A stretch of DNA of 64,000 nt from Takakia lepidozioides (Eukaryota > Plantae > Bryophyta). The notes under the pieces were generated by a model. The model saw nothing but the letters and a program-made list of their open reading frames with translations. It did not search any database and was not told the origin of the DNA. Position numbers and translations under genes: made by a program. The stretch is taken from the NCBI GenBank assembly GCA_030704615.1, contig CM060731.1:1240001-1304000 (forward strand), given 5' to 3'. Of the stretch, positions 9,061 to 46,787 are shown in pieces. Position 1 is the stretch's first letter; every line of letters starts with the position of its first letter.

Positions 9061-9519
9061 TTTCCCTGAGAGCTGGCCTACATGGGTTATGAGTTTCTTC
9101 AGATTTAGAGTTTACTCTCCAAAGATGCACTTAGAGAGGACATTCTTTGGGCTTTCGGCACCTTCTTTTATTTGACCTTATTGAGGTTTCTCCCTTGTAT
9201 ATTCTAGTGTCAAGTTTTTTGCAACTGGGAGCATGTAGATTCATGTTTGGTGCTCAACTCCTGTTGTTTTCCACTCTTGTCATTGGCATTGTTTGGTCCG
9301 TGACTGGATCAATGACCTCCCTAGTTATCATTCCTGACGTGACGTGGCGCTGACACGTCGGCCGTCACGTCACGTCACATCGAATCCGGACGTTTATCCA
9401 CGTAATTTTTTTTACATTTGACTTTTACGATTTACTTCTATCATTTGTAATGACATGACAGCCACGGTGTAAAACAGACATGGCCGATTATTAATATTTA
9501 TTAATTCTTTAAAAAAAAT

Positions 9520-10010: not shown

Positions 10011-10303
10011 TTTTTTTTTTTCTTAAAAATCCAGGGACCCGCCGTGTGACGTTTTGTTTTTTATTTTTAATCATGAAGCGGCGCCTCGGTCAGCCACGTG
10101 GCGAGGTGCCACGGGTCAGGAAAAATGAAACAAATGGGATGGGGGGAGGTGGTTTTGAACCCTTGACCTCTCCCAAGTGGGTGCGCGTGGCGAGGTGCGA
10201 CTGGCTAGTCGCGCCGTGCTGACACATGGTGAGGCGTCACTAGCCTGTCGCGCCTTTTCAAGCATAATGTCTTTTTTTTGGGGGGGGGGGGGGTGGGTGG
10301 ATG

Positions 10304-10624: not shown

Positions 10625-12073
10625 ATGTCGGGGGTTGTGAATTGAAGTTCTGGGGCGGGATCGTCTGGGGGGCGGAGGAAGAGAAAACGTGCCCACGAGC
10701 GGGATAGCCAGGTCAACAAGCCAGACTACCCGGGACCGGATGCCTTGGATAGGGTGAAAGAAGTGGTAGCGGATTATTTCAAGGGTAGGGACATGATGAG
10801 GCTGGAGAGTGCTTATGTTAGGCATGGATGAGAGGGGTTTCAGATTTTCCAGCAAAATATGGAGATGAAAATGACAAACGTTTTGGCGGGGGCTAAATGG
10901 ACAGGGACAAGCCGAAGTTCAATCGGTGGATCCAAAGCAGGGCGAAACACGCCACGTGGAATTTGAGGCAGCTAATGAAGACATGGAAGGTTAAAAAACC
11001 GAGGGTCAAGTGCCCTCCGCCGAAGCCGAGTTAATGCGGCGTGTTGAGTATTGGGCTTGCTCGGCAAGTCAGAATTCACATCGCCGGACTAGGGTTGTTC
11101 CTTGGAAGGCAGGGTCATCAGGCGAGGGAGGCACAACTGGTCTTTATTACCTGAACTCTAGTGCGAAGATGGTAGAGATTGGCCCTTACAAAGAAGGAGG
11201 GTATGCTAAGGTCCGTCACTGTAGGATTGTTGGCAATTCTAGAATACCGGAGCGTTGGGAGCTAGCGGGAAAAAAACCCAAGTCCAAAAATCCAGAAAAG
11301 GCGTTGAGACAACATAACGACGAGTGTTTGACAGTGAAGTTCCAGCATCCGGGTGTTATCTCGTATTTTGCTGTGAATGCACGTGAGGTAGAGGGTTACA
11401 CTCGCTGGTGGAATGGGGGGACAATATGCGACATGATGAACCTTGACAGAAAATGAGGCAACGATTCGGACAACAGGGTGATTTTGGAACAAAGGGGAAC
11501 GGAAGCAGAGTTCCAGGAATGCGATTGCTTGCTTCGTTTTCGGAAAGTGCGCAGTAAACTTGCATGGGCACTGGTGTGCATCATGAATGTTGTCCACAAG
11601 AACGGTGTCCTGCACAACGACTTGTCCCCCGACAACATCTTGTTGCATTTTCCAGATGGCACCGAGGAGATCAAGATTGGGGTGTGTGATTGGGGCTTAG
11701 TCACCCCATTGGGCATACGCAAAGCCTCGCCGTACCAGTTTGAAAACCAAGACAAGCTGGACCGGGAACTCGTGAAAAGATGGTGGGTGGAAAAAGATAT
11801 TGCATCGGTTTTCAATGCGAATGCCACCCCCCCCAGGACATGACGTCGGAGGCCTTTGCTGTTGGGAAGATAGCAGTACGAATAAATGACGGCGTTCATT
11901 ATGATCAAAGTATGTTCCAGGACCAATTTACGGGAGGTTGTTGGCATTCAATGCTACAAAGGTTGTACGACAACAACAAGAATGAGATAGTCACATTAGT
12001 TCATGTAGTACTTCGGTTCATAGGCAAGCCATTCAATTGGCCTGAGCCGAAAGACGTATATAGGACGGAGTAG
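10625..12073 (+). pseudogene. Intronless protein kinase pseudogene with N-terminal NLS-like motif
   Basis: Reconstructed as MSGVVN*SSGAGSSGGRRKRKRAH..., then GPYKEGGYAKV (G-loop), LAGKK, HPGVISYF, VLHNDLSPDNILLHF (catalytic loop), IGVCDWGL (DFG equivalent), SEAFAVGKI. At least 3 in-frame TGA and ~3 frameshifts, one in the C-run at ~11826. Confidence 0.85.
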
Positions 12074-12154: not shown

Positions 12155-12690
12155 AATAAATAAAGTCCCATTGTAAATACTACATTGCATATGCTCGACC
12201 CTGGCACCTGTCATCGCAACATAAATGGTTTGTGTACTGGCTCACTGTTTATATTTGTAATGTTCCAAGGTTTCGGATAGGGTTATGAGAAAACGATGTA
12301 TTAGTTCCGTATGAGTTAGACAACAAACGTCTACTTTCATTCAACTGTGCGACACTACCATGAGAGGTATGGATCGGAAAGTAATAGGTGCACATGCGAC
12401 CTCCGAACGTTTGATACTAAGTCTCTACTTAAACGTGCGGAGGTCGCATGTACACCTATTACTTTTTTTTATCCATGTCACTCATGGTAGTATCGCACAG
12501 TTGAATGAGATATGGAACGTTTGTTGTCCAACTCCTATGGATCCAATATATCATTTTCTCAGTACCCTGTCAGAAACATTGAAACATTCGCAGTTACAAA
12601 CAGTGCCACAATACACGGCCGGTTTTGTTGAAATGACATTTGTGAGGTTCGAGCGTATGCAATTTATTATTTACAACGGAATTTTATTTA
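12155..12690. repeat. Long imperfect palindrome P1 (arms ~265 bp, centre ~12421)
   Basis: Core gtaataggtgcacatgcgacctccgaacgttt / aaacgtgcggaggtcgcatgtacacctattac. The outer arms also align, e.g. ttcattcaactgtgcgacactaccatgag vs ctcatggtagtatcgcacagttgaatgag. Confidence 0.9.
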
Positions 12691-22165: not shown

Positions 22166-25100
22166 TGCGCAAGAGGGGCTTCAACAAGTGAGAATAAATT
22201 TCAGCTCTTCCGCTCATTCACTGTCGGCATGTACAGCGGTTGCTTCCAGTCCCTAGGGTCTCCAGATCTGCAGATCATAATTTAAAAGAAACAGTTAGCT
22301 CAGCTACAGCAGTTTCTGACTGGCAGACGCATCTGTGGTTTTAGCGAGTCACATTTCTTCATCGTCGCGACGGGACAACCTCGACAAGCTCAATTGGGTC
22401 CAATGTCATAATCTCTTCTAACAATATCCCCCTCCTAGAGAGTGGTCAGAGGAAAACTGCAAACTGAAGAATACGTTACACAGCCATTATACGTCGGCAG
22501 ATACTGTGAATACAGGAGCTAATGTTCACTCCAAGGATGAGTGTAGAGAGCTGGTGCCGAGGTCCGCCCACTGAAGTACGTACTACCAGATAAGAAGTTC
22601 ATGCTAGCTCAAGAGTAAGGATCAGATGAAATGTCGCGGCTTCCATAACCAAAACGTGTTAGTTCATGTGCTTAGGAGCTGCCAAAAGAAGTGACAGAGA
22701 CGGGTCGCTTGAGATGGGTCGAGGATGGGTCTAGAGAAATAAGGGAGGAAGAGACTCCACAAGACTTAGAAATCCTCTGCGAACTACAATGGCACATTGG
22801 ACTGATTCTACACCCGAGTATCAAACCGGCAAGTAGAAAAACACATTAGGACCGGCAAACTGCAACAGCACACTTCCCCGAATTTGAACCAAAATCTGTA
22901 ACACCATGCGTCTGACTTCTTGAAGGGCAAGGGACTTACAGTAGGAGACGTCGATAATGCGTCATTTCCAGCATGCCCGCAGCTCATGGAAGCACCTGAG
23001 CTGGCTCGAATGATTTTGGAGAGTAGTCAAGTATAGAGTCGAGCTAGAGCTGAGAAAGAATAGAATGCCGAGACGAGATGCAAGGCAATGCAGGTAGCGG
23101 ACTCGGATGAAGAGCGATGGACATGGAGGGGGCAACAAGGCAGCAAGCTGCAAAGATGGGTACCGAAAGATGGAGACTGTGCGGAGTCACGAGTGGATGG
23201 ACAAGCCAGAAGTGACTGATGAGGGCATGGTGCGTATGCAACCAACCGAGGAATGGATCATAGAAGGAACTTGCAGGTACTTTAGGACCAAGTCACCCCC
23301 CTAATTACTGCCCTCATTCACTGCTGCAGTGTGTGAGAAACTCTAGTCAGCAGAAGCAAGACTGAAGACAGTTTTTGTTTCTGGGGAAGAGATAGCAGGG
23401 AGGAAGATGAAGAACAGACATAATAAAGGCTGGACAGAGAGCAACGCAGCGGCTTCCGCGTACATTAAATTGCGCTATATTGCTTGCAAGACTTGCAGCC
23501 TCCGCGTGTCGCTGCGCAGCCGGTCTGGTCTGAAGCTCGCTGCAGATCGTACCACCTCCCTCGCTGGCGCGCCGCTTGTGTCATCCTCACGCGTACCTCT
23601 GCAGCTTCTCTGAAGCTTGTGCTGCATGAGGCTCCGCTGCCATTTTGAATTGAACCAACCGTCTCCTCCACCACCCCATCTACCAACCCATGATGCCGAC
23701 AAGCCCCTCTTCACATTCCTCATCATGCTCTATGTAGGTCTCATGCTCTCTCACCAAAACTGCAAACCCACATCCACAAACCCAATTGGGTTTCTGGGTT
23801 TTGCAGTGTGTTGTATTGTGAGAGTCCGGTTAGCCTAATCAACCCTAGGTTTGAACTGGGGTTGGGTCAGAAATTTGCCATGTTCCGGGACCAGTTGCAA
23901 ACAGACACATCAATTTTGCAACATTGATTTTGACGGTCTGAAATTGGCAATCAACATGCCATGGAGTCGGTCGTGCAGTGCCTCTTTGCAAATATGTGGG
24001 CTAATGGAATAGACCATGTCTTTTATTTAGAAGACAGTTATGGAAAGTTTGTACTGAGGAGATTGCATTGTACCTTGGACCCTCATACAAACTTGGTGGT
24101 TGGGCTGAGGAAAACCCAATGTTCATAAGTTTGGCACAATCCACAAGCTTGACTATGGAAGGAAGGTCTCTCCAAGTAACTTACGACTTCTCTCCACCTT
24201 GGCTTTCTCCATGGCCCTCTTGATGGATATCTAGAACATCAAATTCTCATATTGGTGATTGCTGGCCGAACAAGGTCCAGTTACTTACAGGACACAGAGA
24301 TGAAACAGGTGCATGATTGCCCATTGTACACAACACACTGTTCTCTTGTGTGTACTAGCCCTCAATGCTCACCCTAAATCAGCGCTGCTGTCCTGGATGC
24401 TCCATTATATGTCTGAGTGTGAAAGCTTTCTGGGCTTCGAACTGAGGGTTGATGACCCATGCTTGCATGACAATTGCATGACATCTGCATTCCGGATGCC
24501 GCAACATGAACCCCCTCATTGAAAGCGGAAATTCATGATTGAGATACGATGAAGTCTGGCCATGATTACACCTAGAATTGTTATGTACTGTCGTACACGA
24601 AGGAGGAGAGAGCCTAGAGGTCCAGGAAGTTGGGTGTCTGATAAGAAACGACGATGGTGATCTTTGATCATGCAAGTCCTTACTCCTTACACTCGTTGAC
24701 CAGTTATGTCCACCACTTCTCTATTCCTTTGGGATCTCTTGGATCGGTTTCTTCGAGCTCCACCCAAAACAACAATCTTTCACTCTCTCATGAATTGCTG
24801 ATATATTGCGGATTGGGGGTCTGAGCTACGATTCCTCAAGCGGATAGTCTCATGGTCAAGCGACTTGTATCCTTTGTTCCACTTTTTTCTTTCTTCTGTT
24901 CCACACCCCCACGCGCGTGTGGGAGGGTTGGTTTGGGCGCTGGAGGAAGAGATGCAGCTTCGCTTCGCAAGGGAAAATTTTCATGTTTGTGGCAGTGTAT
25001 GGCTCAGCACTACGAAAACAGTATCCTTCGGTCAGACAGCAGCAGAACTCACTGTCATTCCAACAATTTCGAACTAGCGAACTCGAGGATCATCTGAGAA

Positions 25101-26265
25101 CACGGGGGTTTTCAGTAATTGCTACTTACCTAGCCACATCCTCAGACGCTATCGTTGAAATCTCCTATCAATTATATGAAGCAGAGCCAGTGAAGTACTG
25201 AGTTGCCACCGTCCGTCCCAGCAGCTAGGGACTTCATCACATGAATAACGACTGGGTAGCTCTGCTTTTCGGCAAGCAGGCTTATGTGTCTCACTCACGA
25301 TCATTGGAGCAACCGGGAATAGGAGGAGAATGATCAGCAGCACCCAGTTTACAGCAGTGTACGGTGTGTGCCATGGACATTCACGATCCATTACGACTGA
25401 AGGAGACGGGAATGTCGGGATGTGAAAAAGGATTGCAAGCTCTACTTATACATAGGGAAGTGCACTTGCCTCCGAGGACTTTGCATTTGTAGTACAGAGA
25501 CATCAAACTTGTTCTTTTTCCCCTCAACAAGTCACATGACATCACTCACACTGACTACCCACATGCCACGCAGACAAACACACAGCCACAAATATATCCA
25601 GCGTATCCCATCCATCGCCTTGTGATCTGTCACTGGATTTCAATTAAGAATGTTCAAGAAGAATTTGTGATGTCCATCATTATTCATGCAAGCTATTCAA
25701 ATGTTTCATGTAGCAGCATCTTCTGCTTGTTATTCTCATTCTTATGAATCAGTAATCTGCCACTATGCTACAATTGCAGCACAAGGACATGACATGACAC
25801 AATGCCATCCGGTAACATACCAGTATTATAAACTTATCATAGACAAAGTCTTACTGGACTGCAGTCAGTTTGCCAGTTTAGAGGGCAGTAAGAACTGTAT
25901 TATGAGGGGGGGGTATAATTATCTGCATCCCATCATGATGATCGGATGTGTAACTAACTTATATGATGATGGGCTGCCCACATTATTGTTTGTGATAATT
26001 TGAAGTCATAGAATCTAGTAAGATTTTAGGCATATGATTAGTTTCTCTCATGTTTTGATAATATGCGTGGAATGATTCTAAACATGTATGTCTTATCTGG
26101 TTTTCACGTTTTCACATGGGCTGGCAGTTTACAAACATGATGCACACCCACCACGTCTCTAGAAACAGCTAACCCATTACATGACTACATGTATATACTC
26201 GGTCCCTCATGGTGTGCAGTTACTTTGAATGTTAAGAGGTTGGTTTTTCCTCTCATTCTAATTAA

Positions 26266-27735
26266 CCCTTAAACGCCCAGTGCCATAGTTTGACTTTTTC
26301 AGGAAACATGACCCCTTAAGTGAAAAAAAGGTGTAACTTTCAGAAAATTAACTTTTTATGTAACTTGACCGCACATTAGGTGCCTACCAGTGTTGGCAGG
26401 GTATCACATTTTGGGCATATTGAAGGGTCCGGATAAAGCATATTCATGTAAAGTGGTATGGAGCCGGTTATATATAATATAGTGGTTCAAAAATTAAGTC
26501 GGTTACAATAGAATGGTCCCCCAAAAAAGTGTCTCGGTTATCAATATGCCGGTTATCCAAGTGGAAGACTACCGGGTACCTATATTACGGTTATCAATAG
26601 TGGTTTTATTTTTTATTTATTTTCTTAAAGGGAAACATCTGGCTCACAAATTAGGCCCTGTGAGAGGAGAAATTGATTTTCATCTATGATATATTCAGAG
26701 GTTATTTTTTCCTCTTGTATCTCTCGGACATTCATGTCCTTATTATAAAGCTTGAGGCCTCTTACCCTCTTCTTTATATATATATTTCAAGAGGACCAGA
26801 AAATAATAGTAATAATAAAGAGACAAAACACAGATCAGAAACCTTAATGGAGGGATGAGAGAATTGATTGAAAAGATGTCAATGGCTGCGTGACAGAGCA
26901 GACATGCATTCTTGCATGGCGGCGAAATCAAATCAATTGAAAGCATTTCTCTTGGACCCTGCACCTGCATCATCTAGAACCGCCTCTATGCCATCCACGC
27001 TTGCTTTGGATCTCACTCCGGGTATAACACCCTTACAATCACAACGCTCGGTTCTCTAGTCGGTTAGCAACCTTGATGGCCTTTGCCAGTTCCCTTCCAT
27101 AGCCGGGTCCCTGCGCGCTGCACTTTCCGGTTATGCACCTATGCATAACCGGCAAATAACCGCCGGGTATGAATGTCTAAATGCCATACCCGGCCACTGG
27201 TGCGTACCTTCCTCCTGCATCCACATGCCGAATTTGAGGCCAATCAGCCCCAGATCCACAAAATGCCACCATTGAATGTGGGCCCATTATTGGGCCCTTT
27301 TGAGAAACATATCCATTTTTGGTAATTTTTTAAAGATTTGAGTGACGGGATCAAATGGGATTGAGGCGAAATTAGCAGGGTTTCATCCTCTTGAGATCCC
27401 TCATCCAACAAGCCAAAAAGTATCCAATTTGGTCAATGCATGTGATGTTGCCACTTGGTCAAACCTGGGAAAATCCCATGTTTCCCTCCCTCTCTCACAC
27501 ATGTGTGAAGAATGAAACAACGAGAATTACCTTTATTAAATCGTGACCCCCCTGTTTGCGTGATGAGACGTCTTTGCAACTTAGCAGATCTGAGGCAATT
27601 AGGCAATGAATCTTGGTGTGTCAGGTGCCCAAGAACACTATATATTTTTTTCACACAATTCCATGGAGAATGCAAAAAGTTATTCAGATTTTTTTAAACC
27701 CAAAAGCCCGAAACGGGCTACTGGGCGTTTAAGGG
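26266..27735. mobile_element. Non-autonomous piggyBac-like DNA transposon (1470 bp)
   Basis: Perfect 16-bp TIRs CCCTTAAACGCCCAGT / ACTGGGCGTTTAAGGG with TTAA on both sides (26262-26265, 27736-27739). Internal cggttat repeats and a subterminal hairpin agcccgaaacgggct. No transposase ORF. Confidence 0.85.
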
Positions 27736-30700
27736 TTAAAGGGCACTATTTGTTATCACATATTTCCCTTTCAGAAACATGAACTATTCACAGTTCACAC
27801 TCTGTAATTTATCAATTGTAGAAGGAATTGACGGATGTAACATGTAACAGTGCTTTGTCTCTAGTTCAGAAGGAAGTCTTATGAGCTGAGTTATAGTAGC
27901 AGGGAGGGATACTTATTCACATAAACACTTGTCCAAATTTCAGTCATGGGCGTCAGCTTTCTGTTCAATGGAAGATGACGACGACTCATCACCTCTTATC
28001 ATTTTTGCTTGTCATCTGGTGCACCGATCAGGTGCCATCACACATTCGTCCATCATGAGCGACCTTAAAATATCCCACAAACACAGTTCAAGAGTAGACT
28101 GTAATGGTATGTTGGCACTCAATATTAAATATCGGCCCACCAATGATGAATCTATTTGGCAGTGTGCATTCATAGACCCACCTGGAAAACATGCTTCAAC
28201 TCTTCTACGGCTTTGACCCTGCCCAGCACATACACCGTTAGATGGCCCAGGGATTTGAGGCATTGAACTTCGATAAATGGGCCACGTTGTAGTGGGAAGA
28301 ACATGATGTCCACTCCATGTTACCTCTAGAAGACTTGGCGACGACAAGTTTTTTGTTTTTTGTTTTTTGTTTTTTTTTGGGATGAACAGTGGGTAGAGGT
28401 TGAAAAGAGGGGAAAACAAGAGAGCGGAGGAAAAAATAACCTCCAGGGAGGCCATAAAGGCGTATAACATGGGAACACCCAGCACTGATAGAAAGGGGGG
28501 GAACAGCAGGAACAAGCCGGATCGTGGCTAAACTATGATGCCTGAGTGATGATGAAGAAAGAGCCCAAAGTCTTGAGATGAGCCAAAAGAAGAAGCTCCA
28601 GGATGATGAAGGAGCCCCAAGTCTTGAAAAGAACCAAAAGAAGGGGCAGAGGGCTGTAGTATGCTACCAATCCTAGGGGAAAGGTAACAGTAGCCCGCAC
28701 TACAAGGCAACCCCCTCGGTAGCGCAATCATAGTACGCGCACGCGCCAGGTGCGCACTAGCACGTGAACTCCCAAAGAAGGCGCAAGTTTCCTAGCCCCT
28801 TGGATGGGGGTCACCCGATTTCGGCACTACGCAAACACACGATTAACCCAATTTACCTCTCCCACTTTTATAAGCTAGCATGCATTCTACACACTAGCCA
28901 ACCATATCATGCTCACCATTCCAGACAAAATAGGATGCACAACATTTGGAATCCATTTCATTTATAGCACGTTTTGTACAATACAAGTTTTTGCAATCGG
29001 ATTCCTAAGCTAGCTAAACCGGGCTAAGCACGCATTTCCTCCCCCACGCTCCAAGGTTGATGTCCCCATCAACGCTTCTTCCGCTTTTGAGGTCGCCCTT
29101 CGAAAGCTGCAACCGCCTCAGATGCGTTTCCCATTTCTGAGGCACGCACCCAAGATGCCTCCACATGATGATAGCCCTTCCATTTGACGAGATACTCCGT
29201 TTCTCGGTTCTTGAACCTCCTCGACTTAAGTATTGCCTCCACCTCGTACTCAGGTTCATTTTCATGATCCAACAGCATAGGTGGCGGACGCAACACTTGA
29301 TGCCGATTCGGACGCGCTTCATATTTGAAGTAAGGCTTCAAAAGGGAGACATGGAATACTGGGTGCACCTTGCTGTTTGCCGGTAGCTCCAATTCATACA
29401 CATCCTCATTCATAACCTTCCGAATGCGAAAGGGTCCCGCATACGGAGGTACGAACTTCGGACTCACTTCTGGAGGTAGTCGGAAATTCTTGATGTTCAA
29501 CCAGACCTCTGTGCCTGCCTCAAACTTCACTTCCCTCCGTTTCCGATTCGCCTACCTTTCATACCATTTCCTAGCTTTGGCAATGTTGTACTTTGCGAGC
29601 TTCAACAAACGCTCGCGTTCTTCCAGTACCACCGCTACTGCCGGTTCCTCAACGTCCTGGGCGGCCCAACTTGTCGGCACAAGAGGTGCTTTTCCATAGA
29701 CCAATACGAAAAGGGAAACTCCCGTTGCGGAGTGTTCTGTGTTATTATAACAGAACTCTGCCGCGTCTAAGTGTTCCACCCAGTTTGTTTGGTCTGCCGA
29801 CACGTAATTCCGCAAGATCTGCTTCACTACGGAATTCACCCTTTCTGTTTGGCCGTCGGTCGTAGGTCGGAAGGCGGTGCTCATCTTCAGCCTCGTCCCC
29901 ATCTTCTTCCAAAGTGCCCTCCAAAATTTACTCGTAAACTTTGGATCGCGGTCCGAGACAATATCCTTCGGGACTCCATGATGCTTTAAGACATGGGCGA
30001 AGTAAAGTCGCCCTGTCTCCTGCGCCGTTGCCGTCTCTTTGGTGGGGATGAAATGGCCCATTTTACTGAACCTATCCACCACCACCATGATTGCATTGAA
30101 TCCTTTTGACAACAGCATAGCAGTCATGAAATCCATCGAGACGCTTTCCCAAGTCCCCTCTGGAATCGGCAGGGGTTGTAACAGCCCCGCTTGCTTTTTG
30201 TACTCGCTCCGGTTTTGTTGGCATGTGGTGCATGTCTTGACATACTCCTCTGCCTCCTCCCTCAGTTTGGGCCAGAAATACTCTTTTTTTAAGAGTGCCG
30301 CAGTGCGCTTGGCTCTGCCGTGGCCCGCAAGCGGGCTATCATGGCATTCTCTCAAGAGACTATCTCTGATCCCTCCCTTCGGCACGTAGAGACGTTTTTG
30401 CTTATACCGGAGCAGTCCATTTTGCAAGTGGAACTGCGATTTAACCCCCATCCTCAAGTCGTGCATCACGGACTTCGCCAGCTCATCCTTCCGGCAAGCC
30501 TTTCGGATCTTCCTTTGGAGCGTCGTCTCGCCCTTGTACACCAACAAGAGCTGCTGCTTTCTACTTAAAGCATCGGCCACCACGTTGTCTCGTCCCGGTT
30601 TGTACTGGATATCCACGTCGAACACCGCCAAAGTATCTTGCCACCTAAGTTGTTTTGGGGACAACTTGGGCTGCGTGGCAAAATACTTCACCGTGACATT

Positions 30701-31034
30701 GTCCGTGAACACTGGGTTAGAACCAACATAGTGGCGCCAAAGCTCAAGGCAATGCACCACCGCCTTCATCTCTTTTTCGTGCGTCGGCCACCGTCGCTCC
30801 ACTTCATTCAGTTTCTTACTTTCGTAAGGCACTGGACGTCCATCTTGCATCAGTACACCCCCAATCGCGAAGTCCGACGCATCTGTATGAATCTCGAACG
30901 GACGATCGAACTCCGGGATTTTCAAGACTGGAGCTTCCGCCATCCGCTGCTTCAATTCAGCAAAAGCTTGGCCACAAAAGGTGTTCCATGCCCAGGCTTT
31001 GGATTTACACAGAAGGTCTGACAGCGGCCCCGCG

Positions 31035-31766
31035 TGTCGCGCACCTCACTTCGGTAAGCTCCCCCTCAAGTCATAGTTACTCGCTTTGATGCGCGCGCCT
31101 GACTCCCAATCTGGCCGCTGGCCCAACTTGGAGCTTCGGCTACTCACCGGGGCATAATGGTCCCCATTTGCTCTCCCAAAGAACCCTCCACCGATTTGGA
31201 ACATGCGGGAATTCCCTTTGGTAGTTGGCAGTCCGGAACAGCTCCCCACTCTTTGGTCGCTTTCCGGCTCGCTCGCTTACTCACTAGTTTTTGGTCACCA
31301 CGGGCTTGCACCGTTCTCGGGTTACTACTCCCTATATATACTTCTGTAGCTGTCTGCGGGGGTTTCACAACCAGCCATGCCATTTTATGGCGAACCACCA
31401 CGAAAACCCTCGACTCCCGTGATGAGTCGAGTCGCGTGAGTCTTGGCCCACTCACCACGGCCCCTATGGACCGTGATGAGTCCCAAGACTCCCCACGACT
31501 CCCACCACGAGGTCTCCGCCCCCATGGTGAGTCCTTAGCCACCCCCACCAAGTCCCGCTAAGCTACCACCACCCCTTGTGGAGCCACCCCCACCGCAACC
31601 CGGTGTGCGGGGCTCCACCTAGTGAGCGCCTCCGCCTCCTTGGGTGCCTTGGGCACTCAAGGGTGCTTCAGCCCCCCATACCTATCGCTGCCACTCCCCC
31701 CACCACAGGGGCAACCCCTCATGTGTCCCGACCCCCCCCCTGCCCTCAAGGCAAAGGGCCGTGACA
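31035..31766 (-). repeat. 3' LTR of inner element
   Basis: tgtcgcgcacc...gggccgtgaca; near-identical to 37000-37725. Confidence 0.93.
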
Positions 31767-34700
31767 CACACCCCTACCAACAGGGAGTCGATGTCCTCAT
31801 CGATTAGTCCATTTTGTAGAAACGAACATCCAAGTGTGGCGTCCCACATCAAGGAGTTTGTTTCCGTACCATGGCGTCCCATGGCAAAGAACCAAACCCC
31901 ACACTTGACTCTACTCTCCACTAGCTAGTTCGGCCGACTTCCTCCAAGTCCCGGCCAGGGGTGGAGCCTCTCAAGCTCCTCCCAGTGCCTACTTCAAGGC
32001 CAAGGAACGATCCTCCCCAAGGATCAAATCGCCTTACTGCAACACATTGCTTGCGATCGCTCATGATGCCGCCTTTGGTATCACCTTGCGCGCAAGATTC
32101 ACCTCGAACCCCCTTTGACTAGGAAGATAACCTTGAACCAACCATGCGCCTCAATCACTACAATTGGGTCCGTCTTGGAATGCTGGCCTAAGGTACTGGA
32201 ACACGTCGAAGCCGCACTACGACTTCGTCCCAAGGCTACACGATTATAGTACGTGAACGAAAGCACGTAGCTTCCGTGTTAGCCCGCACTACAAAGCAAC
32301 CACCTCGGTAGCGCAGTTATAGTACGCGCACGCGCCAGGTGCGCACTAGCACGTGAACTCCCAAAGAAGGCGCATGTTTCCTTGCCCCTTGGATGGGAGT
32401 CACCCGATTTCGGCACTACGCAAACACACGATTAACCCAATTACCTCTCCCACTTTTGTAAGCTAGCATGCATTCTACACACTAGCCAACCACACCATGC
32501 ATCACCATTCCAAACAAAATAGGACGCACAACATTTGGAACCCATTTCCTTTATAACAAATTTTTGTACAATACAAGTTTTTGCAATCGGATTCCTGAGC
32601 TAGCTAAACCGGGCTAAGCATGCATTTCCTCCCCCCACGCTCCAAGGTTGATGTCCCCATCAACGCTTCTTCCGCTTTTGAGGTCGCCCTTCAAAACTGC
32701 AACCGCCTCGGATGCGTTTCCCATTTCTTAGGCACGCACCCAAGATGCCTCCACATGATGATAGCCCTTCCATTTGACGAGATACTCCGTTTCTTGGTTC
32801 CTGAACCTCCTCGACTTAAGTATTGCCTCCACCTCGTACTCAGGTTCATTTTCATGATCCAACAACATAGGTGGCGGACGCAACACTTGATGCCGATTCG
32901 GACGCGCTTCATCTTTGAAGTAAGGCTTCAAAAGGGAGACATGGAATACTGGGTGCACCTTGCTGTTTGCCGGTAGCTCCAATTCATACACATCCTCATT
33001 CATAACCTTCTGAATGCGAAAGGGTCCCGCATACGGAGGTACGAACTTCGGACTCACTTCCGAGGTAGTCGGAAATTCTTGATGTTCAACCAGACCTCTG
33101 TGCCTGCCTCAAACTTCACTTCCCTCCGTTTCCGATTCGCCCTGCCTTTCATACCGTTTCCTAGCTTTGGCAATGTTATACATTCTGCGAGCTTCAACAA
33201 ACGCTCGCGTTCTTCCAGTACCGCCGCTACTGCCAGTTCTCTCGACGTCCTGGCGGCCCAACTTGTCGGCACTAGAGGTGCTTTTCCATAGACCAATACG
33301 AAAGGGAAAACTCTCGTTGCGGAGTGTTCTGTGTTATTATAACAGAACTCTGCCGCGTCTACGTGTTCCACCCAGTTTGTTTGGTCTGCCGACACGTAAT
33401 TCCGCAAGATCTGCTTCACTACGGAATTCACCTTTCTGTTGGGCCGTCGGTCGTAAAGGTCGGAAGCGGTGCTCATCTTCAGTCCTCGTCCCCATCTTCT
33501 TCCAAAGTGCTCTCCAAAATTTACTCGTAAACTTTGGATCGTGGTCCGAGACAATATCCTTCGGGACTCCATGATGCTTAAAGACATGGGCGAAGTAAAG
33601 TCGCCCTGTCTCCTACGCCGTTGCCGTCTCTTTGGTGGGGATGAAATGGCCCATTTTACTGAACCTATCCACCACCACCATGATTGCATCGAATCCTTTT
33701 GACAGCGGCATAGCAGTCATGAAATCCATCGAGACGCTTTCCCAAGTCCATTTTGCAAGTGGAACTGCGATTTAACCCCCATCCTCAAGTCGTGCATCAC
33801 GGACTTTGCCAGCTCAATCCTTCCCGGCAAGCCTTTCGGATCTTCCTTTGGAGCGTCGTCCTCGCCCTTGTAACACCAACAGAAGCTACTGCTTTCTACT
33901 TAAAGCATCGGCCACCACGTTGTCTCGTCCCGGTTTGTACTGGATATCCACGTCGAACACCGCCAAAGTATCTTGCCACCTAAGTTGTTTTGGGGACAAC
34001 TTGGGCTGCGTGGCAAAATACTTCACCGTGACATTGTCCGTGAACACCTTCACTGGGTTGGAACCAACATAGTGGCGCCAAAAAGCTCAAGGCACCACCG
34101 CCTTCATCTCTTTTTCGTGCGTCGGCCACCGTCGCTCCACTTCATTCAGTTTCTTACTTTCGTAAGCCACTGGACGTCCATCTTGCATCAGTACACCCCC
34201 AATCGCGAAGTCCGACGCATCTGTATGAATCTCGAACGGACGATCGAACTCCGGGATTTTCAAGACTGGAGCTTCCGCCATCCGCTGCTTCAATTCAGCA
34301 AAAGCTTGGCCACAAAAGGTTCCATGCCCAGACTTTAGATTTACACAGAAGGTCTGACAGCGGCCCCCGCGATCTTGGCAAAATTTCTCACATACTTCCG
34401 GTAATAGGAGGCGAGTCCTAGGAAGGATCGCACTCCCGGGACCGAAGTCGGAGGCTCCCAGTCCAAGATCGCCCTCACCTTTGTCATCCATTTTGATCCC
34501 ATCCTGTGTAATCACATGCCCCAAGAACTCCACTTTCGTGACCCCGAATTCGCACTTTGAAGCTTTGGGTACAGCTTCCCTTCCCGCAATTTTGGAACAC
34601 CCTTTTGAGGTGCTCCAGGTGCTCCTCCTTTGTTTTCGAGTACACCAAGATGTCGTCGATGTACACGATCACAAAGTCATCCAACCACTCCTGGAAAAGG

Positions 34701-36985
34701 CTGTTCATCAGCGTGCTAAAGGTCGCTGGTGCATTGGTGAGCCCAAAAGGCATCACCAAGAACTCATATGAACCATACCTTGTCCTGCACGCGGTCTTCT
34801 CCTCATCTCCTTCCCCACCCGAATTTGATGATAGCCGGAGCGCAAGTCGATCCGGCTGAAATACTTCGCTCCTGCCAACCGATCGAAAAGGTCGTCGATC
34901 CTTGGCAAAGGGTACCGGTTTTTGATAGTCACCTTATTCAAAGCCCTGTAATCGACACACATCCGCAGCGTCCCATCCTTCTTGTCTGCAAATAGCACCG
35001 GGGCTCCGTAAGGTGACTTACTCGGCCGGATGTACCCCTTTGACATTAGATCCTTGAGCTGAGTCTTCAGCTCGACCAACTCTCTGTGGCTCAACCGGTA
35101 GGGCGCCTTGGCAGGCGGTTCCGATCCCGGTATCACCTCAATCTTGTGGTCAACTCCTCTTCGCGGTGGCAAGCCGCTTGGTAAATCCTCCGGCATCACA
35201 TCCTGGTATTTCTCCAAAATCCCCTTGATCCAATCTGGGCTCGGCTCCCCATCGCCTTCTTTTCACTTCTCTAATGTAAAGCAAAAACTGGGGCTCGTGT
35301 GCCTCCTCCACGGCCCACTCCCTTGCTGACAGAAGGTTATTCGCCCTCCCACGGATTTGGGCGTTTCCGACACTCGTAAGACCTCGCCACCATTCCCACA
35401 TGCAGCGTGACTACTCTCTTGCGGCCATCTATGACCGCTCCGGATTTGCTCAAAAAGGTCATCCCCAAAATGAGATCCACTCCATCGATCTCGCAGATGG
35501 TGAAGTTCTCACGTCCCTCCCAACTCCCCAGTTGAAGAGGAACATCAAACGCCAACCTTGTCGCCAACTGTGGTTCTCCTTTGGCAGAACGCACCTCAAT
35601 AGAGGCCCCCACGTCACTTGTCGGGAGTCCCAACTTTCGCGCCGCCGCCGGCGTCATGAAGGAGTGCGACGCTCCTGTGTCCACCAACAACGACACGTTA
35701 GTTCCGGATATTATCCCATCCACGAACAATAACTGACTCCCTTTACGCAGGGCGCCAGTTTCCTGATACAACTCACAAGAATAGTTGCCTACCTTGCAAG
35801 TCCTGGCGACCACCGCTTCCACCCAAGCGACTGATGGTATCTTCCGACAGCTCCGTGGTTGCCCGAGTCATGTTCAATTGTCGGGTTTCGTGCACTTCTT
35901 GGCCATGTGCCCGGGCTCCCCGCAATTGAAACACACTCCATCAAAGGTCGCCTTCTGTCCGCCATAAGCCGCTCCACCCGCTTTTCCTTTCGAAGCACCG
36001 GGTGCCGCCTTGACGTGTGAAGGCCCTCCCTTCGATTTCCACGTGCCATTGTCGCCGCGTGGCCTATCCCACTTCTTTTCCGGTCGGAAGGAGTCACCTT
36101 CCCGCCGGGTCTTTGTGGTTCAGCTCCGTACGGCCTTGTCTCTCACCCCTAGGGACATCCGAGAAACATTCAGCCCTCTCAATTGCCTCGTTCAAAGTCT
36201 TGGGTGGCTTCTCCTCCAACTTCCGCCTGGCCCATGGGGCCAGTCCCGCCACAAAGTTGAAGACCATTTCTGGTTCTGCCATGTCCGCGACTTCGAGCAA
36301 CAGCACATTGAAAGCCTGGACATACCCCCGAATGTCATCTGTTTGCTTCAAATTCCTCATCTTGTCCCGGGCAAGCCAGGACGCGTTGAGGGCAAACTGT
36401 CTCTTCATCAATTCCTTGAACCCACTCCAGTTCAAGGTTTCCGGGCTTTGGACCTCGGTCGTGAAGGCGTTTCTGCCACCATTGTTGAGCATAGCCCCTC
36501 AAATAGGTGGGAGCCACTTCCACCCGATCCTCGTCACTCAACTTGGCCGCCCGGAAGTACTGCTCTAGCTCCAAGAGCCAGGTGTTGAGTGCCTTCCGAT
36601 TTCGGACGCCCTCGAAGGTCGGGTTCCTTAGGCTTCACCTTAAACTTTGCCTTAGTGGAAGTGGCATTAGCGCCGCCTTCAACACGTCTTTCAACGTCCC
36701 GCCAAACTGCGCCAACAACCCTTCCCAAAAAGCTGCCGGCATGGGAGCATCTGTTGGTTGTCGGAGCTCTAAGGATTCCTCGGGCTCCGACTCCTCGGAT
36801 TCCTCCCGCTTGAGCGGCCTCGTTTTCGGAAACCTGCATCGCTTCCTCAAACGGCCGCCTCGGTGACACGTCGCCCCCATCGGGCTCACCAGGATCATCA
36901 TCTTTTGGGCCGTTCCGCTTTCGCTTTGGCTTGCCCGACCCCATGATGAGGCCAATCCCAAGGACGATCGCGTACTGAACTCTAA

Positions 36986-36997
36986 GCTCTGATACCA
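36986..36997 (-). promoter_or_regulatory. Primer-binding site, tRNA-iMet (TGGTATCAGAGC), inner element
   Basis: gctctgatacca 2 nt from the LTR edge. Confidence 0.9.
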
Positions 36998-36999
36998 AG

Positions 37000-37725
37000 T
37001 GTCGCGCACCTCACTTCGGTAAGCTCCCCCTCAAGTCATAGTTACTCGCTTTGATGCGCGCGCCTGACTCCCAACCTGGCCGGGCCAACTTGGAGCTTCG
37101 GCTGCTCACCGGGGCATAACGGTCCCCCTTTGCTCTCCCAAAGAACCCTCCACCGATTTGGAACCAGCGGGAATTCCCTTTGGTAGTTGGCAGTCCGGAA
37201 CAGCTCCCCACTCTTTGGTCGCTTTCCGGCTCGCTCGCTTACTCACTAGTTTTTGGTCACCAACGGGCTTGCACCGTTCTCGGGGTTACTACTCCCTATA
37301 TATACTTCTGTAGCTGTCCGCGGGGGTTTCACAACCAGCCATGCCATTTTATGGCGAACCACCACGAAAACCCTCGACTCCCGGTGATGAGTCGCGGTGA
37401 GTCTTGGCCCACTCACCACGGCCCCTATGGACCGTGATGAGTCCCAAGACTCCCCACGACTCCCACCACGAGGTCTCCGCCCCCATGGTGAGTCCTATGC
37501 CACCCCCACTAAGTCCCGCTAAGCTACCACCACCCCTTGTGGAGCCACCCCCACCGCAACCCGGTGTGCGGGGCTCCACCTAGTGAGCGCCTCCGCCCCT
37601 TGAGTGCCTTGGGCACTCAAGGGTGCTTCAGCCCCCCATACCTATCGCTGCCACTGCCCCCACCACAGGGGCAACCCCTCATGTGTCCGACCCCCCCCCT
37701 GCCCTCAAGGCAAAGGGCCGCGACA
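37000..37725 (-). repeat. 5' LTR of inner element
   Basis: TG...CA termini, adjacent PBS and adjacent TSD. Confidence 0.93.
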
Positions 37726-40303
37726 CCGCGATCTTGGCGAAATTTCTCACATACTTCCGGTAATAGGAGGCGAGTCCTAGGAAGGATCGCACTCCCGGGA
37801 CCGAAGTCGGAGGCTCCCAGTCCAAGATCGCCCTCACCTTTCTGTCATCCGTTTTGATCCCATCCTGTGTAATCACATGCCCATAAACTCCACTTTCGTG
37901 ACCCCGAATTCGCACTTTGAAGCTTTGGCGTACAGCTTCCCTTCCCGCAACTTTTGGAACACCCTTTTGAGGTGCTCCAGGTGCTCCTCCTTGTTTTCGA
38001 GTACACCAAGATGTCGTCGATGTACACGATCACAAAGTCATCCAACCACTCCTGGAAAAGGTTCATCAGCGTGCTAAAGGTCGCAGGTGCATTGGTGAGC
38101 CCAAAAAGCATCACCAAGAACTCATATGAACCATACCTTGTCCTGCACGCGGTCTTCTCCTCATCTCCTTCCGCCACCCGAATTTGGTGATAGCCGGAGC
38201 GCAAGTCGATCCGGCTGAAATACTTCGCTCCTGCCAACCGATCGAAAAGGTCGTCGATCCTTGGCAAAAGGTACCGGTTTTTGATAGTCACCTTATTCAA
38301 GCCCTGTAATCGACACACATCCGCAGCGTCCCATCCTTCTTGTCTGCAAATAGCACCGGGGCTCCGTAAGGTGACTTACTCGGCCGGATGTACCCCTTTG
38401 ACATTAGATCCTTGAGCTGAGTCTTCAGCTCGACCAACTCTCTGTGGCTCAACCGGTAGGGCGCCTTGGCAGGCGGTTCCGATCCCGGTATCACCTCAAT
38501 CTTGTGGTCAACTCCTCTTCGCGGTGGCAAGCCGCTTGGTAAATCCTCCGGCATCACATCCTGGTATTTCTCCAAAATCCCCTTGATCCAATCTGGGCTC
38601 GGCTCCCCATCGCCTTCTCCTTTCACTTCTCTAATGTAAAGCAAAACTGGGGCTCGTGTGCCTCCTCCACGGCCCACTCCCCCCGCGGGGGATTTGGGCG
38701 TTTCCGACACTCGTAAGACCTCGCCACCATTCCCACATGGCAGCGTGACTACTCTCTTGCGGCCATCTATGACCGCTCCGGATTTGCTCAAAAAGGTCAT
38801 CCCCAAAATGAGATCCACTCCATCGATCTCGCAGATGGTGAAGTTCTCACGTCCCTCCCAACTCCCCAGTTGAAGAGGAACATCAAACGCCAACCTTGTC
38901 GCCATCTGTGGTTCTCCTTTGGCAGAACGCACCTCAATAGAGGCCCCACGTCACTTGTCGGGAGTCCCAACTTTCGCGCCGCCGCCGGCGTCATGAAGGA
39001 GTGCGACGCTCCTGTGTCCACCAACAACGACACGTTAGTTCCGGATATTATCCCATCCACGAACAATAACTGACTCCCTTTACGCAGGGCGCCAGTTTCT
39101 GATACAACTCACAAGAATAGTTGTCTACCTTGCAAGTCCTGGCGACCACCGCTTCCACCAAGCGACTGATGGAATCTTCCGACAGCTCCGTGGTTGCCCG
39201 AGTCATGTTCAATTGTCGAGGTTTCGTGCACTTCTTGGCCATGTGCCCGGGCTCCCCGCAATTGAAACCACACTCCATCAAAGGTCGCCTTCTGTCCGCC
39301 ATAAGCCGCTCACCCGCTTTTCCTTTCGAAGCACCGGGTGCCGCCTTGACGTGTGAAGGCCCTCCCTTCGATTTCCACGTGCCATTGTCGCCGCGTGGCC
39401 TATCCCACTTCTTTTCCGGTCGGAAGGAGTCACCTTCCCGCCGGGTCTTCTTGTGGTTCAGCTCCGTACGGCCTTGTCTCACCCTTAGGGACATCCGAGA
39501 AACATTCAGCCCTCTTAATTGCCTCGTTCAAAGTCTTGGGTGGCTTCTCCTCCAACTTCCGCCTGGCCCATGGGGCCAGTCCCGCCACAAAGTTGAAGAC
39601 CATTTCTGGTTCTGCCATGTCCGCGACTTCGAGCAACAGCACATTGAAAGCCTGGACATACCCCCGAATGTCATCTGTTTGCTTCAAATTCCTCATCTTG
39701 TCCCGGGCAAGCCAGGACGCGTTGAGGGGCACAAACTGTCTCTTCATCAATTCCTTGAACCCACTCCAGTTCAAGGTTTCCGGGCTTGGACCTCGGTCGT
39801 GAAGGCGTTTCTGCCACCATTGTTGAGCATAGCCCCTCAAATAGGTGGGAGCCACTTCCACCCGATCCTCGTCACTCAACTTGGCCGCCCGGAAGTACTG
39901 CTCTAGCTCCAAGAGCCAGGTGTTGAGTGCCTTCCGATTTCGGACGCCCTCGAAGGTGTCGGGTTCCTTAGGCTTCACCTTAAACTTTGCCTTAGTGGGA
40001 GTGGCATTAGCCGCCTTCAACACGTCTTTCAACGTCCCGCCAAACTGCGCCAACAACCCTTCCCAAAAGGCTGCCGGCATGGGAGGCATCTCTTGGTTTG
40101 TCGGAGCTCTCAAGGATTCCTCCCGCTCTTGAGCGGCCTCGTTTTCGGAAACATGCATCGCTTCCTCAAACGGCCGCCTCGGTGACACGTCGCCCCCATC
40201 GGGCTCACCAGGGTCATCATCTTTTGGGCCGTTCCGCTTTCGCTTCGGCTTGCCCGACCCCATGATGAGGCCAATCCCAAGGACGATCACGTACTGAACT
40301 CTA

Positions 40304-40315
40304 GCTCTGATACCA
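40304..40315 (-). promoter_or_regulatory. Primer-binding site, tRNA-iMet, outer element
   Basis: gctctgatacca 2 nt from the LTR edge. Confidence 0.9.
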
Positions 40316-40317
40316 AG

Positions 40318-41040
40318 TGTCGCGCACCTCACTTCGGTAAGCTCCCCTTCAAGTCATAGTTACTCGCTTTGATGCGCGCGCCTGACTCCCAACCTGGCCG
40401 CCGGGCCAACTCGGAGCTTCGGCTGCTTACTGGGACATAACGGTCCCCCCTTCGCTCTCCGAAGGACCCTCCACCTATTTGGGCCTAGTGGAATTCCCTT
40501 TGGTAGATGGCAGTCCGGAACAGCTCCCCACTCTTTGGTCGCTTTCCGGCTCGCACGCTTACTCACTAGTTTTTGGTCACCAACGGGCTTGCACCGTTCT
40601 CGGGGTTACTACTCCCTATTTATACTTCTGTAGCTGTCCGCGGGGGTTTCACAACCAGCCATGCCATTTTATGGCGAACCACCACGAAGACCCTCGATTC
40701 CCGGTGGTGAGTCGCGGTGAGTCTTGGCCCACTCACGCGCCCCCAATGGACCGTGATGAGTCCCAAGACTCCCCACGACTCCCACCTCGAGGTCTCCACC
40801 CCATGGTGAGTCCTATGCCAACCCCACTAAGTCCCACTAAGCTACCACCACCCCTTGTGGAGCCACCCCCACCGCAACCCGGTGTGCAGGGCTCCACCTA
40901 GTGAGCGCCTCCGCCTCCTTGAGTGCCTTGGGCACTCAAGGGTGCTTCAGCCCCCGTACCTATCGCTGCTACTGCCCCCACCACAGGGGCAGCCCCTCTT
41001 GTGTCCCGACCCCCTGCCCTCAAGGCAAAGGGCCGCGACA
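40318..41040 (-). repeat. 5' LTR of outer element
   Basis: Same LTR family, visibly more diverged from the two inner LTRs than they are from each other. Confidence 0.92.
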
Positions 41041-43845: not shown

Positions 43846-44206
43846 GCCAAGCATTAGATGGGGCCCTGGAGTTGAACGCGAGGGAGCCGGTTCAGCCAGC
43901 GTGGACCCCCGCCACCCCATGCCCACCCCCGCCTCCGTCGCCCGCACACCGCGCGGCACGCCTCCCGCGCCTCATGTGCCCGCTGCGGGGACATGAGACG
44001 TGTCCTCACCCGCATCCCCATCCCGCCTCCCATCCTGGCATGCCATCGTCGTCCAGCAGCGGGCACATGAGGCGCGGGGAGGCGTGCCGCGCGGCAGCGG
44101 CCGCGCGGGTGTGCGGGCGACGGGGGGTGGGCATGGGTGGCGGGGGGTCCACGCTGGCTGAACCGGCTCCTTCGCATTCAACTCCAGGGCCCATCTAATG
44201 CTTGGC
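43846..44206. mobile_element. Fold-back MITE (~361 bp, ~140-bp GC-rich inverted arms), probably Mutator-like
   Basis: gccaagcattagatg...gccctggagttgaa...gagccggttcagccagcgtggacccc is mirrored at the right end. Flanks CTGGATTTT / CTGGAGCTT form an imperfect 9-bp TSD (7/9). Confidence 0.8.
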
Positions 44207-44725
44207 CTGGAGCTTATACTTGTTTGGAGTCCTTGGGTTGGTCTACTTGTATGTCCCTACAATCTACTTGACATACTTGGGTCTCATTTTGGCAAGATCA
44301 AGCTTTCACAGGCAGGCCTCACGAAATCGAGGCAGCTGTCACAGACAATCTCCAGAAGGAGTTCTCCGCTGTCTTCTCCCCTGGACTTGCGAGAGAGGAC
44401 AATTGCACTACTCGATGTGGGATGCTGGATAGTCCGCTGCTGGATCGATGAGCTGAATTCCTCTCACACGGAATATTTCTGAAGGCCAAGGCCTCCAACC
44501 AAGCTGTCACGTATGTAGATGTTGTTTGGCGAACCAGAACCTAGCCTCCTCCATGCGGTCGATCTCCAGCTGAAGTCAGAAACCAATCCTGTAGTCAGGA
44601 GCTAACTTTTTCCATGAATGAACTCCGGATCCGACTAGCCTAAGTTCTGGCAGTTCAACCATTCTACATGTGCTCCTTACGTGAATGAGCAGGAGAATCG
44701 AATCTTTTTGCCTCTTGCTTGCTCA

Positions 44726-46787
44726 ATGGCACCTTGCAATGTGCTTGTCTTCCTCCTCGCACTTTTAGAGGTATTTTCTCAGCTTAGATTGGCAACAGCT
44801 CAACCTCAAGGAAACTCAACATGGGCTCTACTACTCAATAATGCGGGCATAGCCGCAATGCACGTGGCAGTGACAAACACAGGCACGGTGATATTTCTGG
44901 ATCGGACTGATATAGGACCTTCCCAACTAAATCTGTCAAATGGACAGTGCCGAGATGATCCAAATGATCAAACCTTAACCCACGATTGCACAGCCCACTC
45001 TGTCATGTTTAATCCTGCAACAAGCACTGTGCGACCTCTTACAGTCCAAACAGATACATGGTGCAGCTCCGGCCAGTTCTTACCCAACGGCACATTGTTG
45101 CAAACTGGTGGAGATAACGACGGCAACAAAAAAATCAGGTATATATCACATTGGATCCACATGATCAGAATGGGAAGAAGATCGTGATAACAGGGTTTTA
45201 GTGCGGGAGCTGTTCTTGTTCAACCTAGATTCGTTTCAAAACTTTCGAACTCTATGGTTGAGATCTCTAGACGGAAGTAAAAGTAAAGACACTTGCAAGC
45301 TTTGCGAATTTCACGTAGGTCGGCATGGCCGAACTATAGATTTTCACAAGTGATCTAAGATGGTTTTCTTCAATGTGCAGGTATTTCACGCCATGCCCAG
45401 CCGATGGCACCTGTGACTGGGTTGAATCAACTACAGATTCTCTCTTAGCAGGCCGATGGTATGCCAGTAACCAGCTGCTGCCAGACGGACGGGTCATTGT
45501 GGTCGGTGGCCGGGATTCTACTGCCTACGAGTTTGTACCAAATCGAGGACTTGGGCTGTTCACCCTCCAGCTCTTGGTTTCTACTGGCTACTACAACTAC
45601 TATCCATTCATTCACTTGCTGCCCAATGGACATTTGTACATTTTTGCCAACCGGGATTCTGTCTTGCTCGATTACAACTCAAACACAGTGCTGCAGACAT
45701 ATCCAACCATCCCGGGGGAGCCCAGAAATTACCCTTGTGCAGGATCCAGTGTCATGCTGGCTTTGGAGGGGACTTATACGGATGCAGACGTGCTTGTGTG
45801 TGGGGGTGCCAACATCATGGCACCAGGGAACGTCACAGCTCAGTATCCTGCATCCCAGACTTGCGGGCGCATGACAGTCACGTCAGCCAGCCCGAGTTGG
45901 AACATGCAGCAAATGCCCATCGTCCGCGCCATGGGGGATATGGTGATGTTGCCCAACAGCCAGGTATTCTATGCTGCTCTCTGTGTGAGTCGACTCTCAA
46001 TCCTTGCTCATAGCGATGATGCTCCTCCGTCTTTGATGCACTAGGATGTAGACCTCCGAATGGTTTGGACCCCTCTTCCATACTGCCAGCATCTCTCCTT
46101 GTGGTCTTTGCAGCAATGCATTGGGCCAATTCTTTAAACGGAACAGGGTTGAGCAGCTCCATCTGATGGACAGAAACTTTGCAGATACTCATAATCAATG
46201 GCGCTCAAAATGGAGCGCAAGGGTGGAATGGAGCATCCAACGCAGCACTCAATCCAGTGCTATACGACCCTGACTCAGCAACGTTCGAGGTACTGCCAGC
46301 CAGTCCCATACCCCGAGTGTATCACTCCATAGCCACTCTCCTCCAAGATGGGCGCGTGTTAGTTGCAGGGAGCAACTGCCATCAATTCTACACATTCACT
46401 GGGGAATTCCCAACAGAGCTGAGGGTGGAAGCTTTCCAGCCTTCATACTTGGACCCCATCAACAACCCACAGAGACCGGTTTTTGTGACGAGTAGCCTCA
46501 CTGTCAACTACAATACTCCCTTCAACGTCAGCATCACCGTCCCAACCGCAGTCACTGGAAACATACAACTCACACTCACCAGTGCTCCTTTCACAACACA
46601 CTCTTACTCGCAAGGCCAAAGACAAGTCAAGCTTCCTGTTGCAGCTCCAGTAGCAACTGGAAACAATGCCTACACTGTCAGTGCTCTGGGACCTGCCAAC
46701 TCGAATTTAGCTCCAAGCTGCTGGTATATGCTATTTGCCATCAACAACGGCATATCTGGGCCTGCAATCTGGGTTCTTGTTGAGTGA
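44726..46787 (+). CDS. Secreted glyoxal/aldehyde oxidase (AA5_1/GLOX-like), copy 2; exons 44726-45138, 45381-45963, 46185-46787
   Basis: Same motifs and intron positions as copy 1; spliced length 1599 nt, in frame. Confidence 0.93.

What the first reader, a model, noticed from the sequence alone, without database searches (positions are those of the whole stretch)
26262..27739. piggyBac-type element in a land-plant genome
Seen: perfect 16-bp TIRs starting CCCT and ending AGGG, with a TTAA duplication. Established: these are piggyBac hallmarks, and the superfamily is chiefly known from animals, fungi and protists and seldom reported from land plants. Perfect TIRs suggest fairly recent activity and an autonomous partner elsewhere.
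Basis: partly seen in the sequence, partly recalled or inferred. Interest (0 to 1): 0.7.

Follow-up and report, generated by a model that had tools for sequence, protein, structure and literature searches.

The report
piggyBac-type transposon family in a bryophyte
This is a real, many-copy, non-coding jumping element in a moss-like plant whose ends look like those of piggyBac transposons, so it was likely moved by a piggyBac enzyme (not found here), a transposon group only barely reported from land plants.

Summary
Observation confirmed: TTAA + 16-bp perfect inverted repeats + TTAA around 1,470 non-coding bases. It is one copy of a multi-copy family: read depth is far above the flank's, 18-21 contigs per run diverge exactly outside the left TTAA, and internally deleted variants exist. 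The host is a bryophyte. The ends fit piggyBac, not Kolobok, and one end carries a palindrome at bases 17-31, where piggyBat's zinc-finger domain binds. Two other plant mRNAs, one from a Ceratodon-like moss, hold 72- and 92-bp elements with the same ends. Not shown: any transposase linked to these ends, an empty site, or horizontal transfer. 'Recent' is only partly supported, since this copy differs about 3% from the deepest family contig. Land-plant piggyBacs are mentioned in one line of a 2025 paper, yet none was found active in 1,007 plant genomes. Verdict: new non-autonomous member of a known superfamily in a rarely reported host lineage.

The parts
26262..26265 (.). Left TTAA, inferred target-site duplication
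   Evidence: Sequence; 21, 18 and 21 contigs in runs X1, X3, X4 match from 26262 inward and carry unrelated flanks before it (table 7)
26266..26281 (+). Left terminal inverted repeat, 16 bp, CCCTTAAACGCCCAGT
   Evidence: length and first six bases fit the piggyBac description in PMC5381638
26282..27704 (.). Non-coding interior, shared with other family copies; no transposase remnant
   Evidence: 50 of 50 stop-to-stop frames of 20 aa or more have no Pfam hit under E 0.09; own piggyBac profile finds nothing; no Rfam match; covered by multi-copy contigs
26379..27198 (.). 820-bp segment absent from a shorter variant of the family (about 650 bp if the rest is the same)
   Evidence: Joint 26378 to 27199 in X3, X4 (depth 1,332) and X5; further joints skip 842-1,016 bases (table 5)
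27705..27719 (-). Perfect subterminal palindrome AGCCCG-N3-CGGGCT at bases 17-31 from the right tip; predicted binding site for the transposase's cysteine-rich domain
   Evidence: 1.1% of 6-nt ranges in the window hold such a start; a related palindrome sits at the same place in moss locus L020; analogy to piggyBat and piggyBac from PMC11707139 passages
27720..27735 (-). Right terminal inverted repeat, 16 bp, perfect match to the left
27736..27739 (.). Right TTAA, inferred target-site duplication
   Evidence: Sequence; right-junction flanks of other copies were not among the rows shown

Best explanation
The 1,470-bp element is one copy of a non-coding, multi-copy DNA transposon family in a bryophyte genome, likely moved by a piggyBac transposase predicted to be (or to have been) encoded elsewhere in that genome. 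Shown: the ends, the lack of coding sequence, many other copies starting at TTAA, and a series of internal deletions. Inferred from established piggyBac biochemistry: a transposase dimer would bind the 16-bp repeat with its core and the palindrome at bases 17-31 with its two cysteine-rich domains, cut the element out through TTAA hairpins, leave one TTAA behind, and paste it into another TTAA, duplicating it. This copy is not among the youngest; part of the family probably spread more recently.
For: Ends: TTAA + CCC...GGG + TTAA, 16 bp, first six bases CCCTTA, matching the published piggyBac ranges of 12-19 bp and C[C/A/T][C/A/T][T/G/A][T/A/G][T/G/A]. 7 rows of the 50-row transposon table of PMC13461360 begin TTAACCCTT, one TTAACCCTTAA. 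L069 has TTAA-CCCTTAACCAGGA ends around PF13843 coding sequence. Multi-copy: summed contig depth 248-25,263 inside against 58-80 on the left flank in X1, X3, X4 (three runs of one sample), 18-21 different left flanks per run, deletion variants, and the family also in X5 from a second study. One-sided subterminal palindrome as in piggyBat (palindrome at bases 19-30 of one end only). Same ends on 72- and 92-bp elements in two other plant mRNAs, L020 nearest to Ceratodon (76%). Host gene groups with mosses, support 100/99.
Against: No transposase was found inside, nearby or attached to these ends in any fetched locus, so the assignment rests on ends alone. No empty site, so the duplication is not demonstrated. 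Only left junctions of other copies were displayed, and 385 loose-end rows were hidden, so the share of copies with TTAA is unknown. A survey of 1,007 plant genomes that screened for PiggyBac found recently active autonomous elements in seven other superfamilies only. None of 20 piggyBac proteins looked up, of 150 found, had a plant name. The 18-base end pattern also occurs in bacterial-looking and animal-looking contigs, so the pattern alone is not lineage-specific.
Confidence: 0.85

Rival explanations
1. The family belongs to another superfamily that yields the same sequence picture: a TTAA-duplicating group such as Kolobok, or a TA-duplicating element whose repeat starts ACCC and that strongly prefers TTAA.
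For: No transposase is linked. Kolobok also makes TTAA duplications. A TA duplication inside TTAA with ends ACCC...GGGT gives identical letters (logic from the sequence).
Against: Kolobok termini are 5'-RR...YY-3'; these are CC...GG. Cryptons lack terminal inverted repeats. All displayed left junctions include the whole TTAA. Elements with TTAACCCTT ends and a known enzyme are piggyBacs.
Confidence: 0.08
2. The TTAA are part of the element's own ends and insertion makes a shorter duplication or none, as earlier scan notes claim for a fungal piggyBac branch.
For: No empty site seen. Unchecked earlier notes e1-9856466 and e1-7826528 describe piggyBac-like elements with non-canonical duplications.
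Against: No matching bases lie outside the two TTAA in the window, L019 or L020, and TTAA outside CCC/GGG is the canonical arrangement.
Confidence: 0.04
3. The element comes from a fungal or animal associate and was mis-assembled into the plant contig.
For: piggyBac is mainly known from animals and fungi. No listed contig spans the whole stretch, and the contig at the left junction reaches only 29 letters past 26261, under the tool's 31-letter rule for bridging.
Against: The left flank runs into the element with 0 differences at single-copy depth in X1, X3 and X4, and an internal 129-base piece matches with 0 differences at depth 48-60. Many other copies have flanks at similar depth. Related elements sit in the 3' ends of plant mRNAs.
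Confidence: 0.03

Closest known systems
Non-autonomous piggyBac elements (MITE-like derivatives of the piggyBac superfamily; type element Trichoplusia ni IFP2)
   Same: TTAA on both sides, short C-first inverted repeats of 12-19 bp, no coding capacity, many copies, deletion series.
   Different: Host is a bryophyte; the repeat sequence after CCCT differs from T. ni's; no 19-bp subterminal repeat on both ends; the mobilising enzyme was not found.
piggyBat (Myotis lucifugus)
   Same: Core motif within the first 16 bases, then a palindrome a few bases further in, on one end only (PMC11707139 passages).
   Different: piggyBat repeats the motif-plus-palindrome unit three times and encodes its transposase; here there is one perfect palindrome of unrelated sequence and no gene.
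PiggyBac Group 4 of PMC13461360 (fungi, land plants, algae)
   Same: Shows that transposase-bearing piggyBacs with TTAA and inverted repeats have been mined from land-plant assemblies.
   Different: The passages and readable supplements name no plant species or plant repeat; membership of this family in Group 4 cannot be tested without a transposase.
Kolobok superfamily
   Same: TTAA duplication.
   Different: Termini RR...YY, not CC...GG.

Membership tests
piggyBac superfamily | TTAA on both sides of the element | tested here: met
   Window copy, L019, L020; left end of 18-21 other contigs per run
piggyBac superfamily | The two TTAA arise by duplication of one target TTAA (empty site) | tested here: inconclusive
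   No joint skipping the element among the rows shown; flanks have no second copy in the window
piggyBac superfamily | Terminal inverted repeats of 12-19 bp starting C[C/A/T][C/A/T][T/G/A][T/A/G][T/G/A] | tested here: met
   16 bp, CCCTTA
piggyBac superfamily | Subterminal palindrome close to the tip (cysteine-rich-domain site) | tested here: met
   Perfect 6-bp-arm palindrome at bases 17-31 of the right end, none at the left; binding itself not tested
piggyBac superfamily | Dispersed copies with the same ends | tested here: met
   tables 2, 5, 7
piggyBac, autonomous element | Encodes a DDD transposase (PF13843) with a cysteine-rich domain | tested here: not met
   No hit in 50 of 50 internal frames or with a custom profile; this copy is non-autonomous
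piggyBac, non-autonomous element | A PF13843 element with the same ends exists in the host genome | not testable with these tools
   No genome held; proxy searches found none
PiggyBac Group 4 (fungi, land plants, algae) | Transposase falls in the Group 4 clade | not testable with these tools
   No cognate transposase in hand
Kolobok | Termini 5'-RR...YY-3' | tested here: not met
   Termini are CC...GG
Crypton | No terminal inverted repeats; short direct repeats only | tested here: not met
   Perfect 16-bp inverted repeats present

The most novel reading that the evidence does not exclude
A resident piggyBac lineage with CCCTTAAACGCCCA ends and a GCCC-type palindrome lives in several bryophyte lineages, has spread recently in this host, and still has an intact plant-encoded transposase: a native, footprint-free cut-and-paste system of land plants that standard plant transposon pipelines do not classify, possibly acquired from fungi or algae.
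Probability: 0.4. Interest if true: 0.68.

Novelty: new member of a known kind. Interest (0 to 1): 0.45.

Why it matters
[quoted passage not shown] A high-copy piggyBac-type family in a bryophyte, with related mini-elements in another moss's mRNA, gives a concrete handle on the land-plant piggyBacs mentioned in one line in 2025: the ends can be used to pull out the enzyme and test its origin. A plant-adapted piggyBac transposase would also be a candidate tool for scarless excision. The mechanism itself is well known.

Tried and rejected
No whole genome was held, so the genome-wide searches could not be run; PF13843 search by locus handle was not possible. No RNA holder listed. The right flank 27825-28300 had no contig cover, which proves nothing. 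End pattern in viral contigs: 0. In metagenome contigs: 25 distinct loci; 5 of 25 (L002, L010, L017, L019, L020) have a partner end within 2 mismatches, none shares interior sequence with the window copy (longest match 27 bases), so they are no evidence of horizontal transfer. Pfam scan of 105 of 392 frames from 12 of those loci: no transposase; custom profile over all frames of 15 aa or more in the window and L001-L025: nothing at E 1; one tblastn hit at E 0.012 far from the element was taken as chance. To find a plant transposase I used short piggyBac motifs recalled from memory, not from a call: viral scans gave chance hits or nothing, the prokaryote-genome scan gave 40 loci with piggyBac frames, which I read as eukaryotic DNA inside those assemblies. 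L069's piece found no longer relatives; the exhaustive search gave 150 proteins, 20 were looked up, 6 clusters had organism names, all animals; the Atlas showed mostly arthropod clusters. These are weak negatives for plants. No Rfam match. Two papers asked for by recalled id were not held. Kolobok and Crypton were rejected on termini.

Full report
Observation. The window holds TTAA (26262-26265), a 16-bp repeat CCCTTAAACGCCCAGT, 1,438 bases, the exact reverse complement, and TTAA (27736-27739). About 0.002 such perfect 20-bp pairs are expected in 64 kb, and it is the only TTAA-CCC...GGG-TTAA pair a targeted script found.

Host. No genome was held. The window encodes a plant methyltransferase (PF03141), SelO and chromodomain Gypsy elements. 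A glyoxal-oxidase exon is 66-68% identical to Sphagnum, 64% to Ceratodon and 57-60% to the nearest lycophyte proteins. In a tree of both window paralogues with 34 of the 120 listed hits, chosen by me to cover the named lineages, they fall in a clade with Sphagnum and Ceratodon (100/99), outside those two (89/84, not starred). The set held no named hornwort, so the host is a bryophyte, likely a deep-branching moss, hornwort not excluded. This rests on one gene.

It is a multi-copy family. Five of 10 listed runs hold part of the element: four from one sample and one plant metagenome from a second study. Four were laid on 25400-28300. The left flank is covered by contigs with 0 differences at depth 58-80; inside the element the summed depth is 248-25,263. 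The tool warns that this is no copy number, but tens of copies or more is the plain reading. 21, 18 and 21 contigs in X1, X3 and X4 match from 26262 inward and have unrelated flanks before it (agreement 0.37-0.40), so these copies start with the whole TTAA. 385 loose-end rows were not shown, so I cannot give the share of copies with TTAA, and no right-end row was shown. Joints show variants that skip 820-1,016 interior bases, one also in X5. No displayed joint skips the whole element, so there is no empty site.

Age. The window copy differs from the deepest X1 contig (345 bases, depth 1,226) at 11 positions, and 23 of the 40 displayed differences have T or A in the window where other copies have C or G, as expected of decay by cytosine deamination (inference). 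So this copy is not brand new. The deep contig suggests some twenty near-identical copies, that is, a later burst, but contigs merge variants, so this is a hint.

Ends. PMC5381638 (passages) gives TTAA, repeats of 12-19 bp and the start C[C/A/T][C/A/T][T/G/A][T/A/G][T/G/A]; CCCTTA fits. In the supplement of PMC13461360, 7 rows of a 50-row table start TTAACCCTT. L069, from a giant-virus assembly, has TTAA-CCCTTAACCAGGA ends around PF13843 coding sequence. Kolobok has RR...YY termini (PMC9587614, passages) and Cryptons have no inverted repeats (PMC3212892 and PMC13465315, passages). Directly inside the right repeat lies a perfect palindrome, AGCCCG-N3-CGGGCT, at bases 17-31; 1.1% of 6-nt ranges in the window hold such a start. 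In piggyBat the core domain binds bases 11-16 and two cysteine-rich domains bind a palindrome at bases 19-30, on one end only (PMC11707139, passages). That the palindrome here does the same is inferred.

Other carriers of the ends. An exact scan for the 18-base end in metagenome contigs gave 25 loci. Five have a partner end within 2 mismatches. L019 and L020 are mRNA-like plant contigs with 92- and 72-bp elements between TTAA just after the coding sequence. L020 encodes an acid phosphatase 76% identical to Ceratodon and 55% to Sphagnum, so probably a different moss than the window's host (different genes, weak). L020's element has a related palindrome at the same place; L010, of unknown origin, has an unrelated one; the other 29 of 32 ends tested, including the window's left end and both L019 ends, have no perfect one. 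L019's lineage was not tested. Other hits look animal (LDL-receptor domain in L017) or bacterial and share no interior sequence, so they say nothing on horizontal transfer.

The missing enzyme. No transposase was found near any of these ends. Searches seeded with piggyBac proteins from other contigs returned no plant-named protein among 20 of 150 looked up; these searches were not aimed well at plants. The assignment therefore rests on ends, insertion site and family structure.

Mechanism. Most likely (0.85) a non-autonomous piggyBac moved in trans. Shown: structure, copies, deletions. Inferred from established piggyBac chemistry (hairpin step and my own knowledge): end binding, hairpin excision, precise repair, TTAA duplication.

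Literature. Ten searches showed no paper describing a bryophyte piggyBac family; most subscription papers and Repbase are not covered. [quoted passage not shown] PMC5381638 says 'except in plants'. PMC12973397 (passages) screened 1,007 plant genomes for 17 superfamilies including PiggyBac and found recently active autonomous elements in seven others. PMC12550479 (passages) classes plant MITEs without piggyBac. PMC6890710 (passage) lists 1,230 automated PiggyBac hits in a fern; PMC12130436 (passages) lists 0 in a liverwort; PMC7466625 and PMC8075897 (term searches) do not mention it; PMC10619864's hits are the word 'piggybacking'. Other papers were seen as listings only.

Verdict. A real, new non-autonomous family of a known superfamily in a host group where it is barely recorded. 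Interest 0.45; 0.68 if an intact plant transposase with these ends is found across bryophytes (probability 0.4).

Noticed in passing
window 9500-10020 and 16950-18650: Two arrays of 50-53-bp units with the palindrome GCGACCGCC...GGCGGTCGC, in opposite orientation, enclose kinase-like (11457-11840) and RING-like (15222-15674) frames; possibly the subterminal arrays of one large DNA transposon with captured genes.
   Followed up: no
window 19877-22180 and 44639-46809: Two glyoxal-oxidase genes in inverted orientation, 85-95% alike in exons, about 23 kb apart; used to place the host.
   Followed up: partly
window about 28990-41020: Several near-identical (96-100%) tandem or nested pieces of a chromodomain-bearing Gypsy retrotransposon with many frameshifts; recent tandem insertion or assembly artefact.
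   Followed up: no
window 12259-12588, 13310-13659, 43861-44192: Three short elements with 70-92-bp imperfect inverted arms, MITE-like.
   Followed up: no
L069:1875-5375: A 3.5-kb piggyBac with TTAA-CCCTTAACCAGGA ends and a transposase split over frames, in a giant-virus assembly contig, apparently nested in another inverted-repeat element.
   Followed up: partly
L028-L067: 40 loci in 'prokaryote' genome assemblies carry piggyBac frames, many from two assemblies; likely eukaryotic DNA inside those genomes.
   Followed up: partly
L019:776-875 and L020:262-341: Very small (92 and 72 bp) piggyBac-type elements in the 3' ends of plant mRNAs; could affect transcript ends.
   Followed up: partly
L010:785-1650: An 866-bp TTAA-flanked element with the same first 18 bases and its own subterminal palindrome, in an AT-rich contig of unknown origin.
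   Followed up: partly
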